Source: Pelagomonas calceolata
Taxonomy: Eukaryota
DNA length: 64,000 nucleotides
Assembly (NCBI GenBank): GCA_918797485.1
Contig: CAKKNE010000004.1
Coordinates: 1,612,001-1,676,000 of the forward strand
Reading direction: 5' to 3'
Positions 19,629 through 38,878 of the stretch are shown one piece after another. Numbering within the stretch: the stretch's first letter is position 1; each line of letters begins with the position of its first letter. The notes below the pieces were generated by a model. It had not been told where the DNA came from and searched no databases. It saw nothing but the letters and a program-made list of their open reading frames with translations. The position numbers and the translations under genes were made by a program.

Positions 19629-22600
19629 CTACATGATAATTGCAGCTTGCTCATTCTTTCCTAGTGGTGCTTTATCAAGGATAATCATGTCAGTTGGTGC
19701 CTTCCGATCAAGCTTTCTTCCCCATATGGCTTGATAACCAGCTTCAAGATGCCTGAGCGTCTTGATTGACTCAAAAAGTGGTGCTTGGTGAGGCCCAACA
19801 CGGGACATTTTAAGCTTCTGACGATACGTGTGCAACTTAACTTCATCAACAGCTAGGGATGTGGCAAGGTTCTTGTAATCATCGAGAGAATCTGTGATAA
19901 GCTCTGGGCAACCAGCAGCGGTGCACAAACTTGCAGATATGCGCGTCGCAATTGTTTGGCCCAGAAAGGTAACCACTGGCGTTCCAGCCCAAAGTGCATC
20001 TATCGTGGCGTCGACGGCATTATAACCAGGCGTATCTAGAATAAGATCAGCAAGCACATTGCAAGATATGCATATATCTTTCTGAGCGAGGTCAGTAAAG
20101 AATAGTCGACATTCCTCTACCTGAAAAGAAGCGCATTCTTGCTTAAGGCGGTCAATAGCACCCCTTCTCGAGCATATATTCAACCAAAGTATTGCATTGG
20201 GAACGCACTGTAATATCTTCATCCACGTGGTGAATATAACCGGGTCCAGCCATTTGAGCGGGCCAAAGTATGCAAATACAAATGCATCCTCCGGAATACC
20301 ATAAGTCTCGCGGGTGCATGCGCCCCTGGGGGGATCATCAAGAAGATAATTGTATTCCATTGCATGCCCGTTCAAAATACATGAGTCCGGCAGCAGTAGC
20401 GCACATTCATCAATATCATATTGGGTTCCAGGGGCACCAGGTGGCTTGGGGGGACCAAGCACAACACGATCAGCAACAAGATAGTCCAAGTAGTCTGCAC
20501 CGCAGGTACCATGGAAACCAAGCACGAAGGTGAGCTGGATCGGAGCTGGACGTAAAGCAAGAATCTCATTGTGGGCGTGTGCAGTGTGGCCATCAAGATG
20601 CGCAAGGATATGAACTCCATCTGCGTGGATGGCACTTGCTGCTTCTTTGGCGGTAATCCGGCTCAAATCTTTGAAAGTTCCTGCCAGCTCACATTCGCTT
20701 CTCACAAATTGTGCGCCTTGATCTAGCTGATCTAGTGGCGATAGCGAGTAGCAAGTCACGCAAAACCTTGTCATGTCATGATACTTAAACAATGGGGCAA
20801 ACAGATGCCGAATAGAATGTGTCCAAAAATTTGAACTTATGTAGCCCACATGGATTCGCCTTTCATTAGGAACTGCAATTGAACATAAAGCATGGTGGTG
20901 TCGAAATGAATTGAGGGCCAATAAAGCGATATTTGCCCTGGCTCTTGCTGCAAATCGCCTAGTGAGTCGCTGTACATCACGTGGTGCAATTGAGTCCGTG
21001 AGAGCTAAAGCATCAATTGGTTGGATGCAGGGCAAGGACGCACTAAACACGTGACCAGACTTATTACTGTTAGATTCTGGCTGTTCAACTAAACCCGCAG
21101 AGGATCGTCGTCTGTAATCTAAGATTGTGTCATCATAATTGTCCAGCTGCAACTGGATTGCAACAACTAAGGCAAGGCTGCTTAGGTGTGGTGCGCGCAT
21201 AGTCCAATCACACACGGAATCTTTGGCTTGAAGTAGGCCAGCAAATGCACCAAGAAAGTTTGGGTTGAGACTTAGTGCTTGCTCATAACAGTGGATTGCA
21301 TCTTCGTAGTTCCCTTTATCTCCATGTGCCTAGCGTGATCGACGCAAGTAAGATAAGTTTCATGCAAGAGACTATGACTCGTGACTGCAGCAAGCGCAGC
21401 ATGCCCTTCAGCAAGGTGCGTTGAGATATCAAGGGCTGTTGTGAAACATTTAATAGCATCATCTAACCTGATGTGATCACAGAATGAGGACGTAAGATTT
21501 TTTGCACGGAATTGCTCTGCTAATGGCTGGCGAATGTCACGATATGTGTTGCCAAGGTTTAGGTATGCTTCTGCAAAATCCGGGTCAAGGGCAATAGCTT
21601 GGTGGTAGTGCGCGATAGCTTGTTCAAGTTGACCTTGCTCACGCAAGAGAGAACCAAGATTGGTATGTGCTGGTGCAAACGAGGGCATCAGTCGTGCTGC
21701 TGTTACGTTGCAGTGAATTGCCTCGCGCACAAGGCCTCGATCACGCATTGCATTACCGAGGTTGCTGTATGCATGCGGATGATTCGGCTGGAGCCGAAGT
21801 ACCGTGCGGTAACATTCAATGGCCTCACCCGCATCGGCTTTCCGCTGATGTTTTTGGGAGAGTTCACGGCTCATTAGTTCGGTTGTGTCTCCTTTTATCA
21901 TTCTAAATTCGCCACTAAGCTGTAGCATCGCGAATGGTTTATTGAAGTCTCGAAGTGCATTGCCAAGATTATTGTAAGCATCCGGGAAGTTTGGCTCAAG
22001 TTGAACAGCACGTCTCAAGGCGCAAATTGCACGTTGCACCTCGCCAGATACGAGAAGGCAGCTACCTAGATTGCCATGGGCAATTGCGAAGTCAGGTCTG
22101 ATGCGTATTGCAGTACTGTAGCATTGAAAGGCTTCTAGGACATTACCTTGCTCCTGCATTGCTGACCCGAGATTACTATAAACATCGGCAAATTGTGGAC
22201 AGAGGCGGATTGCTTCACGATAATACGCGATAGCTGTTGAGGTTTGTCCCTCCTCTCTAAAGATTCCAGCAAGATTCGACCAGGCAATCGAAGATTCGGG
22301 CTTCAAGCGAATTGCCTCCATATAACACTGGCGTGCCAACTTTAATTTTCCTTGAGCCTTAAATATGTTGCCGAGGTTACAATGGGCACCAACTAGACCT
22401 GGGTCAACCACAATGCTCATCTGAAATGCCTCAATTGCATCATCGACCTGTCCTATCTGAATGTGGGCCGTGGCAAGGTTGTTGTATGCATCGCCAAAAC
22501 GAGGATTGCACTTGATGGCTTTGAGGTAAAACCTGGTTAATTTCTCCTATTGCGCCGAGATGCGTGATTGTTGACACTGTTTACCTGCCCCATTGATCCT

Positions 22601-30934: not shown

Positions 30935-32008
30935 CTTACTAGTAAGGCCCACTGGCAAGAGGGACTCCGAGTCCGAGTCGGAATTTCGGGGTTGTCACTG
31001 TGTCTAGGTCGAATTACTCTAGGGCCAGGCGTTACAGTGCACACATCAGGCCAGCGCCCGGACCTGATCATAGCTTGTTGAGGGATTCAAGTTGCCAGTG
31101 CCAGTCACGGTGGTACTTCAGCGATCTATCATGATGATGATAATGAGTCGAGTCGTGGCTGAAGTGGCCCAGGGTTTAATTCAAGCTCGGCCTGCAGCTT
31201 GGAGGTAGCAGAACTTGAACCTTGAAAAATGTTGTAGAAAATAAAATTTACACTCAGGCTGTAAAAAATGCCGCGGCTATTTGGAAGTGTGGTTGCCGGT
31301 ACTTTCGCCCCGGGGACCGGAAGGCGCCGAACAGTGGCAATATTCACCGATCATCTCCTCGAAAGTCGCAGCTCACTGGACGTATTGCTTTTTACTGCTT
31401 TTTGCTCTAAATTTTTTAGCAAGCCGATAATCATGATCATGATGACTTTCAATGTCGTAAAGAAATTCAAACTTAGCCTGAGGGCCTATATAGCTTGAAT
31501 CGAAAATTCTAAACGGGCCTCAGGCTATAACACCCTATGATCGCCCAGACATCCGGAGAGAAGTACTACTAGCCTGGGTTCCTGCGGTTGCGTAGGTCAG
31601 TAGGATAGGATGAGTAGCTTACTCAGGCTAGTCACGGCCCGGGTACTACTAAGCGCTGACGTGATCTAGGCTAGCCACTTGGCTAGCCGCGGCATCTGAA
31701 AATCTCGAGCCAACTAGGGGAGGGATAAGGTAGATCACGCGCATTGCTGACTCGGAGATTCTGTGTTTGCAAATATAGCCTTGTGTTCCGAGTCAAGTTT
31801 CCGAGCTTCAGGCTGCCGGCGGCGGACGACGCCCCTCCATGGTTACCCCTAAGAGTCCTGCGAGGAGCCTCCGCGCTTCCCGGGCAAACTTAAGGTGTTC
31901 GCCCTCCCTGCCCTGCCCTGGAGAGGGCTGGGACTTTAGATTGCGGCCCTACTGATCCCGCCTACCGTAGGTAGGCACATGTATCAGGGCTACATGGCGG
32001 CGGGTAAA

Positions 32009-35000
32009 ATGATTTCAAATTTTGCGACTTGTTGCATTGTACTGCTCAGAGGCACGTGTGCGCTGTCAGAACTTTCCGTGAAGATCCTCGCACAGAAGCG
32101 AGTTGAACCTCTACATCGCCTTTTGTCGTCGCTTCAAACTACCTTATACCCGCCCACGGCAAATGTCGATGTCGAGATCCATGTGGACCAATTACCCTCT
32201 GAGGGGTTTCATCTCTGGTCGCGGAGGTCCGCGCGGGATATAGAACAACGTGAAAAGGTTCTCGAGCTCTCTGACAATTTCGTGCGAAACTGGAGTCACG
32301 GTAATGCCAGAGTTGTGAAGCTAGAGAAATGGCATGGTGTCCGAGGCATGTGGCTTGCTTGTGCTGATCCTGGATTATATGGCGAGGAATTCTCGCGCTT
32401 TGTGATTTTCGAGGATGACGTTGAATTATCCACTGCCTGGTACGTATTTCCCCAGCTGCCTATGCTCTGAATCACCACCTAGGTTTGAATATCTTGCAGC
32501 AGCACATCGCGCGTACTCGATGAGTACCGGCATTGCTGGGATATCACTTCAGCGTCAAGCGGGTCGCATGGATGCCTACCCCGAAGAACTCGAGGGCAAA
32601 CGAGTTCGCCCTGGCAAGAATCAGCCGTTGGCTGCATTGAAGCCAACGACATACCGCGATACGCTCTATCTATTCCCACACGTTGGTAGCTGGGGATTTT
32701 CACCAGAGCCTAAAGTGTGGCATGATTTTTTGGACTGGTTTAAAAATCTTGAGGATGTAGATGCCCCCGAGAACTGGGTAACGCTAGTAGATACGGGCAA
32801 ACAAGTGAATCCAAAGCGTGAATCCCTCCCGTCTAGGTGGTATAGGCACGCGTTGAGCTCGCAGCGTGGTGAGCTGGGCATCTCGCAGGGGGGGGTGGCA
32901 GAGACAACTTCAAGCATGTGGACAGCCCACTTTGATACATTTTGCATGCAACGAGGTTTGTTTACATTGCACCCTCATCTCTTTGTATCCCAGGATGATG
33001 GGGGCGATTCGTTGGAGGTAGGACTTGCCAGGTCATGGCGGGAAGATGGAGCTCACTATCGGGGCTTCAATACACCAGATAGTTCCTTGCTTAGCCTGAA
33101 AGCCTGGCGAACTAAGTATTTATCTGGCTCGCTTACTGGTTTGTTTTTACCCGATGATGAAGTAGCACGGTTGACCCACGGGGGTGAGCGGCTTTCCAGT
33201 TCCGACGTGGCATATTTAAAGCGGCAATACGCAGCTAACAATCTCCAGCTCTCTGTGAATGCAGAAGGCCGGCGCTTGTTTGACTTGGACGTGTATTGGA
33301 ATTTGGAGAGCTCCATAGCACTCGATGATTTGACACATGCAGTGAATGGAAACACGTTTGGGTACTATAATCCACTCTCCACGATTACTCAAACCCAGGC
33401 ACACTGTATTCTTGGGGGGAAGTCGGTCGCCATTTTGGGTGATTCCATTTCCCGATATTTTACTTACACATTTAATCATTTTTTGGAGCACGGTGTGATT
33501 GCCGCCGAATGGGGGGAGCAAAATGGCGGCTGTGGAAAGTGGGGATGCGGTAACAGAGCAGATGGCGAGGCATGCTACGTCGGACCCTACTTTGATTGTG
33601 GCACAACTTGGACCGACGGCACGGACCGTTCCGGCAAAGCAGATCACCGCCAACACATTACAGCAACCATAGAAGGAGGTTACGGCGAAATAAAAACTAC
33701 TTTCTACTTCATTCAGGATACATGGTATGACGCCCTGCAAACTGAAGCTGCAGCAATTAAAGACCACGATGTGGTGATTGTAAATTCTGGCTGGTGGGAG
33801 CTCAAAGAAGACGACGACGACGATCACAGGTCAGATTCTTGCTCATTTGACGACGACGATGATGTTTCTGACTTTTACACTGATTCCGATTGCCTAGAGT
33901 CCTATGAGGACGACCTTAACGATCTGGTCGAAAGTATATTAAAATTCTTTGTTGTTGACGCTGAGAAGGCCGTGATATGGCGCCAAGTAACCTGTTGTGG
34001 CGTCAACTATATCGACTCCAGGCAGCGCATAGGCGCCATTGCTGTTGGAGCCATGAATGCGATCGCAGACAAAGTCATGGCTGACAACTCGATTGATACT
34101 GTTGCCGTGTACCAAATGTCCAATGTTGTCAATTTGATAAGTCGCACCTTCGACAACTTTCATCCTCGTTCCAATCAGTTGCATGTCTGGACACAGCTAT
34201 GCCTCAACAAAATTGCGAAGCAGCTCAACAAGGTTGATGAATGTCTCGTTTCTCCATCATCTACTCCATCAGCAAAGCCTGCCCCAACTCTAGGCTCAAA
34301 CCCTACAACGCCGTCGCCCTCTCATGGACAGCTCCCGTCTGCATCAGGCACACCATCACCAACAGCGCATCCGGCGACCGCAGCACCGATGGTTGTGACG
34401 CCAAGACCGACGAAAGCTCCATACCCATGGCCAACCAAACACCCCACTGAGGATCCTAATTTGAACATGGACTCTTCAGGATATGACATGGGTGAAGATG
34501 TGCGCGAGGCTTCAAGATCTCAGACCTTGATGGTCGGTAACCAGACATTTGAATTTACCTGTTTTTCATCAAATGACGGAATCACGTACAAAAACAAGCC
34601 AGCCTTGGACTTAGGAGAGTGTCCCACGGCTGGACAGAAAGTTTTATTGGCAATATTCATAGCTTCCTTGGCCTCGTACGTGATCGCGCTGATGCTGAAG
34701 CCACCAGGCACAAAAGGGTCTAGCTTGCGTGCATTTCAGGCGTCAGCAAGTAACTCCACGGGGCCATCTACAGCCAGCAAGACCGAGATATCTACTTTAG
34801 AAGACGAACTTTCTAACTCTGCACTTCAAGTTCTTCGCCAGATGGAGGACATCGAGGTTCGGTCTGGACCAAGCCAGCTCGCATCCGTTGCTGAGTGCAA
34901 AAATGAAAGCTGCGATTTTTCGGGCAAAGGCTCTGAAAGCTGCAACACAAAGGTGACAGCATCACGGGCCGTAGCTCGACAACGATCCTCAGCGCAACGA

Positions 35001-36671
35001 TCAGGACTAAGGGTTTCCTCCATACGTGATGGGAGCCACCACGCACCCCGAACTTCGGTATCTTTAGTCAACAAGACTCTTTCGGTCGCTGGTGCATCTG
35101 TCCGCACATCGTCTTACGCGGAACCCCATCTTGATCCTAAGGTTTCCTCGGTTGCATTTTCTTTCTATGATGGCGGAGACTCAGACGACGAAGAAGTTGC
35201 ACCGATCAATGCAGCCGTCCTAGATATATCAACTGGTAGTAAGCACGGACAGCAGGCTCGTGAGACTGCTCGGACAGCTCTCGAGTTTGCATTCCTGCTG
35301 ATGGTCTGCGTTGTCGGTGAACATCGCATGCCATCTGGCTTCCTACCTGCAGGAACCACGATAGCACCCGAGAATCCTGATCTCTGGTCCTTTATCATGG
35401 TTCTAGTTTTTCTCGTTTCGCTGCTCAATGTGGAAGTCCTCGAAGAAGGAACCGAGGTGTTCTTGTCGCGCGCCCAGGCCAATGAGTGGAAAGGCTGGAT
35501 GCAGGTTGCATTTGTTGCCTATCACTATACAAACAATAATGACGTCTATGTTCCGATACGTTGGTGCGTCTCTGCCTATGTCTGGCTCACCGGCTTTGGG
35601 AATGGAGTTTACTTTTGGTCATCGGGTGATTTCTCATTCAAACGCTTCGCCCAGCAACTTTGGCGCATGAACTTTCTTTGCCTTTTTCTCTCGCTTTCGA
35701 CCGGTACCCCCTGGATCGAATACTACTTTGTTGCCCTTGCCACGGTTCACTTTACACTTATTTGGGTCTCGTTGGGTCTGGCCAGGGCCTTTGGCCACTT
35801 TGTTGCAGAATGGGAGAAACCCGACAAGAAGGAAAGTAGAGAAGCATGCTATGTAGAGAAGGCCCTTGGGTGTGGAATTATGATTGGTCTTTGTTGTCTC
35901 ATCTGGCTTGATCCTCACAACGACGGAGAGGGTGTTTACGACGTTGTTTTTCGCCCGAGTCTTCTTACCATATCAGAGCACACAGAATGGTACTTCTGGA
36001 TGCGCACAAAAATGGACTTCCTCTCTTCCCTTCCCGGCCTTTGCTTCGCTGTTGTCTATACACCCTTTCGAGACTCCTGGCCATATGGTATTTCACGCAC
36101 TGCACGCTGGTGTATTGGGCTATTTTCTAGTCTTCTATTTGCGGCAGCGATATGGATTAGTCAGCTGAAACAATATTGCTGCAATGGTGGTGCCGATTAT
36201 CGCACCGTGAATCCGTACATTGGCACCCTCTGGATTCCTGTTTACCTCCTGTTACGCAATTGTATGCCGTGGCTTTCTCGTCGTATAATGAAGCCTATTG
36301 AATGGATAGGAATGCATTCATTGGAATTTTATCTTCTCCAGTTTCACATATTTCTAACATCAGCCTCCCATCGTATCCTCTATATCATTCCTAAGGAGAG
36401 TTGGGGCTACACGAATATGTGCATTGTTGGATGCATTTACTTTGTCGTCGTCATTAAGGCTCTCGAAGTTACCAACGTGCTAAGAAATATTGCCTGGCGT
36501 GCGAGCCGCAGGAAAGTAATTCTCTCAACTCTATGGACTATCGGTGCCTATACGACGCTTGCAGATGCCAATTGGGACGATGGCACATGCTCGCGTCTGT
36601 CATGGGTACTCTGGTTGATCTGGTGTGCTATAGTAACAGGCCTTTTTGCATATTGGACCATAGCCGTGTAG
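32009..36671 (+). CDS. Secretory-pathway fusion protein: GT-A-type glycosyltransferase-like domain, SGNH/PC-esterase domain, Pro/Thr linker and Cas1/RWA multi-TM O-acetyltransferase domain
   Basis: Signal peptide; LHRLLSSL..YP, WSHG, FVIFEDDVELS; intron 32440-32482; ILGDSISRY and DNFHP (GDS/DxxH); LSRAQANEWKGWMQVAFVAYHY, VSAYVWLTGFGN, SLEFYLLQFHI. Confidence 0.85.
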
Positions 36672-38878
36672 CAATGCCGTGGGTCCTGTACTATTTCTCG
36701 AGGCGCGGCAGAAAGTCGGGTGGTGAAACAATGCAATTCATAGCGGATATCTTAGGTCCCCTTCCGACCAACTCGAAGATGGTTCCGCCCGCCGCAAAGT
36801 ACGCCGCGTTCTCCCATTAAAGAGTGCCAATCTGAGTAGGACGTATATACGATTTGGGGAGTACTACTAGTAGCCACGACGCCAAACCAACTTGGCAAGA
36901 TCCATTTCCCTAACTTGAACTTATCCCTATCTATTATCCCTCTCGGCCTATGCAGGAAATAAGTAGGGTGCGGTGGTATACCGACCCCTTGCAACGGTGT
37001 GAGTGAGTTTGGCGTAAGTGACTCCCCGTGTAATACTAGCACTAACTTGAAGAATGAATGTGGTGTAAACCTTCATTACGTCAAGGTGGGACTAAGTAGG
37101 AGAGAAAGAGGGGCCTAGTGTAGTACTAGGGGGTATATTCTTCGCACTCCCCCTGGACCTTGATATGGTTTGGTTTTTCCTTTTTTTTTCAGTTTGATGA
37201 GTAGAACTTCTGTGTCTACTCTATCGTCACGGTGTGAGCCACAAGCAAATAGTGCCTTGTGTGGTTCGTGGTCGGTGTGTCTAGAGTAATTCGCGGACAT
37301 GAAAGGTCCACAGGGAATATAACCCTTGTATGTAACGAATTGGGGACTTAATTATGTTCAGTCATCAAAGTGTGTCCTCATAGAGTCATTTTCTTCTCCT
37401 CTCGTCGTATCAGATTGATCCATCGTTGTCGGTGTTTTCATGTTGGTTCGAGGCTTTCTTGAAGACGATTGAGGGGGTTGCTCTTTAGCAGGTGTCTTAG
37501 GTTTAGTTTTTGTATCATCTGATGAAGACGCAGCCTCAGGCTGCCAGAGAGTATTAAGATTCGCAGGGTAATTTATCTTAATTAGGACTCATGGAGGATG
37601 TGCCAGTGTCAATTTCTTATCCGAAAAAATTACCCGGGGTTACTCGGGCCATATTGTCCGTCTAGCTAAGCAGTCTGGACACTTATCCGAGTCAGTCCCA
37701 AGACTAAATAGACTGAACCTAGAACTAGAACTGTGTGCCAGACGCGTCATCGAGCAGAACGCGCCATCGAAGCAGACAGGCGGGACGCGAATCAGGATGG
37801 GTGGGACGCGGAATTTGGATCTTCCTCAGGCTCATCAGCTGGACGCGGCAGCGAGCGGCAGCGACGGTTGCGATGCCCTGCTAGACGCGGCGTCGGGGCG
37901 GCGTGCACTGCCTGGGTCGCCGGGTCCACCGAACTTCCCGACCCGCCAAAGGCCTCAGGCTGCCCCGGGCCGCACGTCTACCCCGCCCCCAGTGTCTGGC
38001 ACGAGGCTCGAGCGGCAGCGGGCTCCGCGGCCTCGGACTGCTGGCGCCACCTGCTCGACGGCAGATGTATAGACACGAGTAAGATACACGAGTTGACTTT
38101 GGGGAGGGCTGGGCGCGGCGTCACGGTTGGCGACTTGGGGCAGCGTTTGAACAGCCACTCCTGTAAATATGAGTTTAATGAGCTCAGTCGAGTGTCGCTA
38201 GCGTGGCGCACTCACAAAAAACGGGAGCACCGTCACCCGAGACCCGGGGCCTGGGGTGTTGTTCAAGCTCATCTTTGTATGCGACTCGGAAGTATAGTAT
38301 CAGCCAGCAGCCCGAGTGCGGGCCCGCCCGGGCCGGCGGCTTCTACTTGAAAATAAAATCGAAGGTGAGTTTGTACCGCTAGCTCTTAGTGTTCTTCGCC
38401 GCTCGCCCTTTCAAGTTCAAGTTGTACTACCGTCTAAAAGCGCTCAGGCTCCTCAGGCTCAACCGTGAACCCCGGGGCCTTTGATGAGCACCTTTTTAAC
38501 CGTCGGAGCCGATGCTGCCGCGAATCTGCCGCCGACTAGGACCCCGGATCAGCTCTCACCCGACTCTACCCCCGGGCCCCGGGCCCGGCGGGCCAACCCG
38601 GGCCGTAGTGAGGCTTGCACATTGTGGACATACAGCGTACCGTAGGTACGGTCTGAGTCCAGGTACCGTCTTAGTTCGAAATAACTATAGTCAATTCGGG
38701 TTTGGGGGTGCATACGCCTAGGGAGGGGTGTACCGTCTTAGTCCTACTGCGGTACCTACGGTATTGTATCTAACCTACGGGTACCTACGGTATGGTTGAG
38801 CAATAAACGATTTGTCACATGCCCATGCTGTTTTACATAAATTTGTCCGTGATATAAAGATCAAACTACAGTAGCCGC

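What the first reader, a model, noticed from the sequence alone, without database searches (positions are those of the whole stretch)
32009..36671. Glycosyltransferase + SGNH + Cas1 O-acetyltransferase in one polypeptide
SEEN: one spliced frame of about 1540 aa links a signal peptide, a GT-A-like domain with an EDD motif, an RRL site (33270-33278), an SGNH domain with intact GDS (33438) and DxxH (34152), a Pro/Thr linker, and a Cas1/RWA TM domain (EWKGWMQ). ESTABLISHED: fungal Cas1p and animal CASD1 fuse the SGNH-like and TM domains, while plants split them into TBL and RWA proteins. INFERENCE: an added glycosyltransferase could couple glycan synthesis to O-acetylation for an algal wall or mucilage polymer, and RRL may be a protease site that releases the GT domain.
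Basis: partly seen in the sequence, partly recalled or inferred. Interest (0 to 1): 0.72.

Follow-up and report, generated by a model that had tools for sequence, protein, structure and literature searches.

The report
Algal glycosyltransferase fused to O-acetyltransferase
One transcribed algal gene joins a sugar-transferase-fold domain to a CASD1/Cas1p-type acetyltransferase in an old, conserved fusion that databases label only by its acetyltransferase half; it likely builds and acetylates a cell-covering glycan in the Golgi, and is predicted to be cut in two at a conserved RxL site.

Summary
The gene (32009-36671, one 43-nt intron) encodes 1539 aa. RNA reads cover it continuously and show only that splice. 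A model of a close relative gives a GT-A domain (best match POMGnT1/GnT-I, Z 18) followed by an SGNH domain (XOAT1, Z 16). The membrane part is Cas1_AcylT and keeps the residues CASD1 needs for transmembrane acetylation.

The fusion is not a one-off. It occurs in four named pelagophytes and in unnamed marine eukaryotes. All GT-bearing Cas1 domains form one clade (100/99), and the GT tree mirrors the TM tree. The SGNH domain sits in the middle or at the C-terminus, so GT + TM looks like the old core.

The GT is not a GT13 member as far as tested: it keeps EDD and a C-terminal His but has no conserved acid where the GT13 base should lie. R-x-L is kept at the GT boundary in 20 of 22 GT-SGNH proteins, but is absent from one sister clade. 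Cleavage, substrate and activity are untested. I found no description of this architecture in 10 paper searches. Verdict: a new variant of a known kind.

The parts
32009..32439 (+). Exon 1 (CDS); transcript coverage starts about 31985, so the upstream in-frame ATG at 31979 is probably not used (31994 remains possible)
32440..32482 (+). 43-nt GT..AG intron, the only one
   Evidence: 38 junction reads; two contigs; same position in L010
32483..36671 (+). Exon 2 (CDS to stop); 3' UTR to about 36858
32009..32065 (+). Likely cleavable signal peptide (aa 1-19); the GT starts right behind it with no stem
   Evidence: sequence and homolog N-termini; by eye, no predictor
32066..33206 (+). GT-A glycosyltransferase domain (aa 20-385), GT13-like fold; R31, D60, EDD135-137 (32411), W290-T291 (32919) where the xED base is expected, H335 (33054)
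   Evidence: pN/pS 0.14
33270..33278 (+). RRL, conserved R-x-L motif; predicted luminal protease site
   Evidence: 20 of 22 GT-SGNH rows; cleavage untested
33282..34247 (+). PC-esterase/TBL-type SGNH domain (aa 411-732); S465, D701, H704; NSGWW at 33783
   Evidence: XOAT1 6cci Z 16.3 on relative
34248..34451 (+). Pro/Thr/Ser linker; most relatives carry a Cys-rich repeat here that this gene lacks
34641..34697 (+). First predicted TM helix (aa 864-882), after a small Cys-containing module
   Evidence: hydropathy
34707..35246 (+). Predicted cytosolic loop with conserved LEDELS..ALxVL and SSVAFSFYDGGDSD(D/E) blocks
   Evidence: topology inferred
35247..36668 (+). Cas1_AcylT multi-pass acetyltransferase domain; R1140, K1147, H1158, R1198, R1205, Q1430

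Best explanation
This gene encodes one precursor that joins a GT-A glycosyltransferase domain to a CASD1/Cas1p-type O-acetyltransferase; it likely works in the Golgi to build and O-acetylate one secreted glycan, and is predicted to be cut at RxL. Shown: single spliced transcript, domain order, folds (on a relative), active-site residues, ancient co-inheritance of GT and TM. Inferred steps: (1) the signal peptide puts GT and SGNH in the lumen; (2) the TM domain moves acetyl from cytosolic acetyl-CoA to a luminal sugar via H1158, and the SGNH triad adds a second acetylation, as shown for CASD1; (3) the metal-dependent GT adds a sugar to the same glycan, likely without a GnT-I-type acid base (retaining, or onto a phosphate acceptor); (4) in the branch that holds the pelagophytes, an S1P-like protease cuts at RxL, so the fusion mainly guarantees co-delivery and 1:1 amounts. 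The product is probably a component of the Golgi-made perforated theca or mucilage.
For: Transcript; two relatives have full-length MMETSP transcript ORFs of 1658 and 1684 aa (P0064, P0107). Folds: POMGnT1 Z 18.1 (rmsd 3.3, 238 aligned), GnT-I Z 18.0, XOAT1 Z 16.3 (rmsd 4.4, 230 aligned). TM His and Gln in 28 of 28 rows; basic residues at H-18 in 27 of 28 and H-11 in 28 of 28, the spacing of CASD1 R428/K435/H446 (PMC13043746). GT donor-binding half near-invariant over 23 domains. pN/pS against a close relative: GT 0.14, SGNH 0.10, TM 0.08. 18 of 26 hits carry both GT and TM. GT-bearing TM domains form one clade, 100/99, mirrored by the GT tree; 0 of 30 outgroup loci show a GT, 19 of them with at least 2 kb upstream. 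R-x-L lies 49-74 aa before GDS in 20 of 22 rows with 7 different middle residues; background 0.002-0.01 per residue. It fits diatom RXL pro-peptide sites (PMC5525289, PMC5647440) and the S1P motif (PMC4498157). The theca and mucilage are Golgi-made (PMC12168098).
Against: No activity, substrate or localisation was tested. No conserved Asp/Glu after residue 179 apart from two partly kept positions (14-15 of 23), so the GT mechanism is open. RxL is missing from the sister clade (P0024, L025, L027, L038, L075) and from two Aureococcus gene models, so cleavage is not needed for the fusion in general. The rows are related, so 20 of 22 is not 20 independent events. Paralogs P0017/P0019/P0023 keep RRL but have no detectable GT, so the acetyltransferase can persist without it. 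Sampling was seeded on this family and the broad profile search never ran. All raw RNA runs are one sample and short-read.
Confidence: 0.55

Rival explanations
1. Uncleaved trifunctional enzyme: the TM domain acetylates a nucleotide sugar that the tethered GT then transfers (channelling of an O-acetylated donor). RxL is structural or only partly used.
For: CASD1 is proposed to acetylate the donor CMP-Sia before transfer (PMC13043746). GT + TM is the constant core while SGNH moves or decays. One clade lacks RxL.
Against: R-x-L is kept at the GT boundary in both domain orders (P0021, P0022, L018 as well as the GT-SGNH forms) while its flanks are unalignable. No donor is known.
Confidence: 0.25
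2. The GT-fold domain is not catalytic. It is a sugar- or nucleotide-sugar-binding or inhibitory pro-domain that is removed at RxL to activate or release the acetyltransferase.
For: No acid at the expected base position. Paralogs with a shorter, GT-undetectable N-terminus keep RRRL. Diatom RXL sites remove pro-peptides (PMC5647440).
Against: EDD, R31, D60, G-loop and H335 are near-invariant at 25-30% overall identity. Many active GT-A families lack the xED Asp (PMC7185993). Stand-alone and GT77-fused members of the same GT family exist (P0039, P0041).
Confidence: 0.15
3. Two adjacent genes or an assembly artefact read as one frame.
For: Gene callers split this locus at the intron (P0036 and P0001). 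No long reads.
Against: Open frame across 33200-33400, continuous reads, one contig, and fused orthologs in many species.
Confidence: 0.02

Closest known systems
CASD1 (animals) / Cas1p (Cryptococcus): PC-esterase SGNH + Cas1_AcylT (PF07779)
   Same: Luminal SGNH with GDS, NxGxW and DxxH before a multi-pass Cas1 domain; TM His, Gln and basic residues at CASD1-like spacing.
   Different: An extra N-terminal GT-A domain, an RxL site, a long linker and a 180-aa loop. The TM domain falls in a separate, long-branched clade. In sister forms the SGNH is C-terminal.
GT13: GnT-I (MGAT1) and POMGnT1
   Same: Best structural match (Z 18), EDD metal motif, similar N-terminal half.
   Different: 14-16% identity; below the Pfam GNT-I cut-off (15.5 vs 25.4 bits); no acid at the expected base position; has a C-terminal His, which GT13 lacks (PMC7185993); no type II anchor or stem.
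Arabidopsis At5g12260, a non-CAZy GT-A of unknown function
   Same: Described as having no Pfam domain, GnT-I as best fold match and an EDD motif (PMC3522684, passages).
   Different: Stand-alone plant protein with a proposed Asp base. Family identity with this GT is my recollection; I could not fetch the sequence to test it.
Plant RWA + TBL/XOAT1
   Same: Same two acetylation modules; XOAT1 is the best SGNH match.
   Different: Separate proteins in plants (PMC6110886), none fused to a GT in the passages read.
RXL-processed diatom proteins (silaffins, Sin1, SAPs) and S1P-activated GNPTAB
   Same: R-x-L after an N-terminal luminal segment; S1P motif (R/K)X(hydrophobic)Z.
   Different: There the released piece is a short pro-peptide or a subunit; here it would be a whole 390-aa enzyme domain. 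Cleavage not shown.

Membership tests
CASD1/Cas1p O-acetyltransferases | Cas1_AcylT TM domain above the Pfam cut-off | tested here: met
   176 bits vs 27.3
CASD1/Cas1p O-acetyltransferases | TM catalytic His, Gln and acetyl-CoA-binding basic residues | tested here: met
   H1158, Q1430, R1140, K1147, R1198, R1205; mapped by motif and residue spacing from PMC13043746, not by alignment to CASD1 itself
CASD1/Cas1p O-acetyltransferases | Luminal PC-esterase SGNH domain with GDS, DxxH and W/H in place of the GxND Asn | tested here: met
   GDS463, NSGWW578, DNFH701; XOAT1 Z 16.3 on relative. Pfam PC-Esterase does not hit the query; weak hits in P0020 and L026
CASD1/Cas1p O-acetyltransferases | O-acetyltransferase activity on a defined sugar; Golgi location | not testable with these tools
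   needs assay and imaging
GT13 (GnT-I/POMGnT1) | GT-A fold with EDD motif | tested here: met
GT13 (GnT-I/POMGnT1) | Pfam GNT-I score above cut-off | tested here: not met
   no hit for the query; 15.5 and 14.7 bits vs 25.4 in relatives
GT13 (GnT-I/POMGnT1) | Conserved xED Asp as catalytic base | tested here: not met
   no near-invariant D/E in the C-terminal half over 23 domains. Placing the site at W290-T291 rests on my recall of GnT-I; no residue-level superposition was available
GT13 (GnT-I/POMGnT1) | C-His absent | tested here: not met
   H335 in 22 of 23; its identity as the C-His is inferred from position
At5g12260-type non-CAZy GT-A | Sequence homology to At5g12260 | not tested
   sequence not obtainable with the tools; the profile search did not run
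RXL / S1P-processed precursors | (R/K)-x-hydrophobic motif at a luminal domain boundary, conserved | tested here: met
   20 of 22 GT-SGNH rows; 3 of 8 GT-TM-SGNH rows
RXL / S1P-processed precursors | Cleavage in vivo | not testable with these tools
   needs proteomics

The most novel reading that the evidence does not exclude
An ancient, undescribed subfamily of marine-protist Golgi enzymes in which a Cas1-type transmembrane acetyltransferase O-acetylates a nucleotide sugar and a fused glycosyltransferase of an unclassified GT-A family, lacking the usual base, installs it. A second SGNH acetyltransferase was recruited more than once, and in pelagophytes the precursor is matured at a diatom-type RXL site to build the perforated theca or mucilage, whose chemistry I found undescribed in the papers read.
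Probability: 0.2. Interest if true: 0.8.

Novelty: new variant of a known kind. Interest (0 to 1): 0.6.

Why it matters
It gives a first named enzyme candidate for the Golgi-made coverings of pelagophytes, which include abundant ocean picoplankton and brown-tide species, and predicts an O-acetylated glycan there. The fusion ties an unclassified GT-A family to acetylation, a handle on its function. It is a natural test of the 2026 proposal that the Cas1 TM domain is itself an acetyltransferase acting on donors. It would extend RXL processing from diatom biosilica proteins to a biosynthetic enzyme. Current database names (sialate O-acetyltransferase) miss the GT entirely.

Tried and rejected
No genome was held for the window. 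Sequence searches of the PDB found nothing significant for the two exons; GT profiles gave only weak GT13 hits (E 0.02-0.6) and did not reach the base region. NCBIfam gave nothing relevant. Complex prediction of GT with SGNH (P0009 pieces, run without alignment) gave no answer, score 0.00; not used as evidence. The second fold (P0031, GT only) was poor, pLDDT 54, and was not searched. The broad profile search of 1.84 billion representatives never ran (queue full, 10 tries), nor did the wide VIA search, so the taxonomic range is a lower bound. A GT-only scan of viral contigs could not be seeded; the viral fold search gave only generic GTs. The prokaryote genome scan gave 1 hit of 45 pattern matches, a 69-aa piece at a contig end spliced onto secB, which I read as an assembly chimera. 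Alignment A5 held a wrong sequence and was replaced by A6. A regex had the wrong spacing for the TM His and was redone. The run search listed no indexed holder on record as RNA. P0040 (GT-SGNH-TM-kinase) was rejected as evidence of another fusion: identical to P0107 for 755 aa, then diverging at a repeat. Earlier scan findings: none by sequence or by all words.

Full report
Gene structure. The + strand has a 1421-codon open frame at 32406-36671 and an upstream frame that stops at 32470. Removing a 43-nt GT..AG intron (32440-32482) joins them into 1539 aa with no internal stop. Four polyA runs of one sample give sense-strand coverage from bin 31868 to 36858 without a gap, one joint (this intron; 8, 0, 1 and 29 reads), and poly(A) ends only at 36852 and 37035. 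At finer scale the best run holds 25-46x across 33142-33385; a weaker run drops to 1-3x at 32898-33202 but not to zero. A 4879-nt spliced contig starts at 31985; if colinear it would end near 36900 (inferred; only its first 1573 letters were laid). A two-gene reading is not supported. No long reads were seen.

Organism. Named relatives are pelagophytes: CCMP2097, Chrysophaeum taylorii, Aureococcus anophagefferens and the cluster of Aureoumbra lagunensis. The window is 51% GC, its neighbours are housekeeping genes (MutL, OGT, ARF-like, BRCA2, V-ATPase), and near-identical copies are frequent in metagenome contigs. This would fit the 52% GC regions of Pelagomonas calceolata (10.1101/2021.10.25.465678, passages). 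That is inference; no call named the species. There is no glycan gene cluster around the gene.

Domains. Pfam finds only Cas1_AcylT. The spliced protein could not be folded directly, so I folded P0009, a relative 57% identical in the GT and 67% in the SGNH, with a 31-row alignment; both domains are mostly pLDDT 80-95. Foldseek ranks POMGnT1 and GnT-I first. VIA gives residues 17-384 to POMGnT1 (Z 18.1, rmsd 3.3, 238 aligned) and GnT-I (Z 18.0), and 402-715 to XOAT1 (Z 16.3, rmsd 4.4, 230 aligned). The ESM Atlas independently points to GNT-I/GT2-like clusters. SGNH motifs GDS, NSGWW and DxxH match the PC-esterase pattern of PMC2824669 (parts 1-3 of 4 read). In the TM domain, H1158 and Q1430 are present in 28 of 28 rows. 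R at H-18 (27 of 28) and K/R at H-11 (28 of 28) reproduce the spacing of CASD1 R428/K435/H446, and an R-x6-R pair follows as in R489/R496 (PMC13043746, outline plus sections 13 and 14 read).

The GT. Over 23 domains R31, D60, EDD135-137, the VGSWGF loop, W290 and G333-x-H335 are near-invariant, but no Asp/Glu is near-invariant in the C-terminal half. Inverting GT-As mostly keep an xED Asp, and GT13 lacks the C-His (PMC7185993, passages). So this domain has the GT13 fold but fails two GT13 features; the placement of both sites is by position and recall, not by superposition. Against a close relative (L010) pN/pS is 0.14 for the GT, 0.10 for SGNH, 0.08 for TM and 0.25-0.33 for linkers: the GT is under purifying selection. 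At5g12260 is described in similar terms (PMC3522684, passages), but kinship was not tested.

Distribution and history. Of 26 hits to exon 2 (only the 7990 best-seeded candidates were scored), 19 carry the GT and 18 carry both GT and TM (the GT profile was built partly from these rows, but plain BLAST with the query GT finds the distant ones at E 1e-14 to 1e-32). Of 80 metagenome loci, 17 carry the GT. Two orders occur: GT-SGNH-TM (pelagophytes, P0020, L026) and GT-TM-SGNH (P0021, P0022, P0024, L016, L025, L027, L038, L075; L018 is cut off within the TM). The lineages of the second group are unnamed; from GC and gene style I guess haptophytes and other stramenopiles. In a quick tree of 57 TM domains the GT-bearing rows and their fragments form one group of 25 (SH-aLRT 99; near-duplicates and short pieces were left out). 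In a careful tree of 23 chosen rows the 11 GT-bearing ones are one side of a 100/99 branch (midpoint root, so monophyly depends on the root). The GT tree recovers the same subgroups. None of 30 outgroup loci shows a GT; 19 had at least 2 kb upstream. Internal and C-terminal SGNH domains are barely or not detectably alike, and P0024 has lost GDS. The simplest reading is one old GT + TM fusion with SGNH gained or moved more than once.

RxL. An R-x-L lies 49-74 residues before the GDS in 20 of 22 GT-SGNH rows, with R, K, Q, V, T, L, S or G in the middle; the two misses are Aureococcus gene models, and alleles of one of them have it. Background is 0.002-0.01 per residue. It is also present after the GT in P0021, P0022 and L018, where the next domain is the TM, and absent in P0024, L025, L027, L038 and L075. 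Diatom RXL sites mark pro-peptide removal by an unknown protease (PMC5525289, PMC5647440, passages), and S1P activates GNPTAB at (R/K)X(hydrophobic)Z in the Golgi (PMC4498157, passages). Cleavage here is a prediction (about 55%). It would free a soluble GT, since there is no anchor in front of it.

Mechanism. Best reading (0.55): a Golgi precursor whose GT and two acetylating sites act on one secreted glycan, matured at RxL in the pelagophyte branch. Rivals: uncleaved channelling of an acetylated nucleotide sugar (0.25), a non-catalytic pro-domain (0.15), artefact (0.02). The theca or mucilage as product rests only on their Golgi origin (PMC12168098, passages).

Prior description. Ten paper searches found no account of a GT fused to a Cas1 domain; the library lacks most subscription journals. 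The supplement of PMC2824669 (term search only) lists long Aureococcus proteins as PC-esterase + TM and a Thalassiosira one as TM + PC-esterase, with no GT named; these may be members, which I did not check. PMC6110886 (passages) and PMC10366177 (passages) do not mention such a fusion in what I read. Other papers were seen only as search listings. Earlier scan notes record acetyltransferase-GT fusions of other families in bacteria (unchecked), so the general idea recurs; this pairing, in eukaryotes, appears undescribed.

Verdict. Real, conserved and unannotated; both halves are known kinds of enzyme. New variant of a known kind, interest 0.6.

Noticed in passing
window 36016-36025: RNA reads show A>G, C>G and C>T in 5-40% of reads in all four runs. 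Each wrong base repeats a base one or two places before it, which looks like a sequencing phasing error rather than editing; no DNA run was compared.
   Followed up: partly
P0017, P0019, P0023; L019-L023: Pelagophyte-type paralogs with SGNH + TM and RRL but a shorter N-terminal domain that the GT profile does not detect; by eye it may be a decayed GT.
   Followed up: partly
window 34707-35246: The predicted cytosolic loop keeps LEDELS..ALxVL and SSVAFSFYDGGDSDDE blocks across pelagophytes; possibly sorting or phosphorylation signals.
   Followed up: no
L026:5620-6378: A serine carboxypeptidase C-terminus and the start of the GT lie in one open frame; adjacent genes or a further fusion.
   Followed up: no
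L012:776-840 (approximate): The Aureococcus-like ortholog has an in-frame GC..AG intron at the same position as the window's intron, read through by gene callers (P0028).
   Followed up: partly
L081:2695-3207: Bacterial secB joined at a contig end to a 91% identical piece of the algal Cas1 TM domain; likely an assembly chimera in a bacterial MAG.
   Followed up: partly
P0041, P0039: The same GT family occurs fused to a GT77-type domain (PF03407) and stand-alone in a cryptophyte, Teleaulax amphioxeia.
   Followed up: no
window 31580-31611 and 36951-37146: Short intergenic repeats that attract reads from transcripts elsewhere (loose ends).
   Followed up: no
window 19629-22546: O-GlcNAc transferase (TPR + GT41) gene; no sign that it is linked to this finding.
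   Followed up: no
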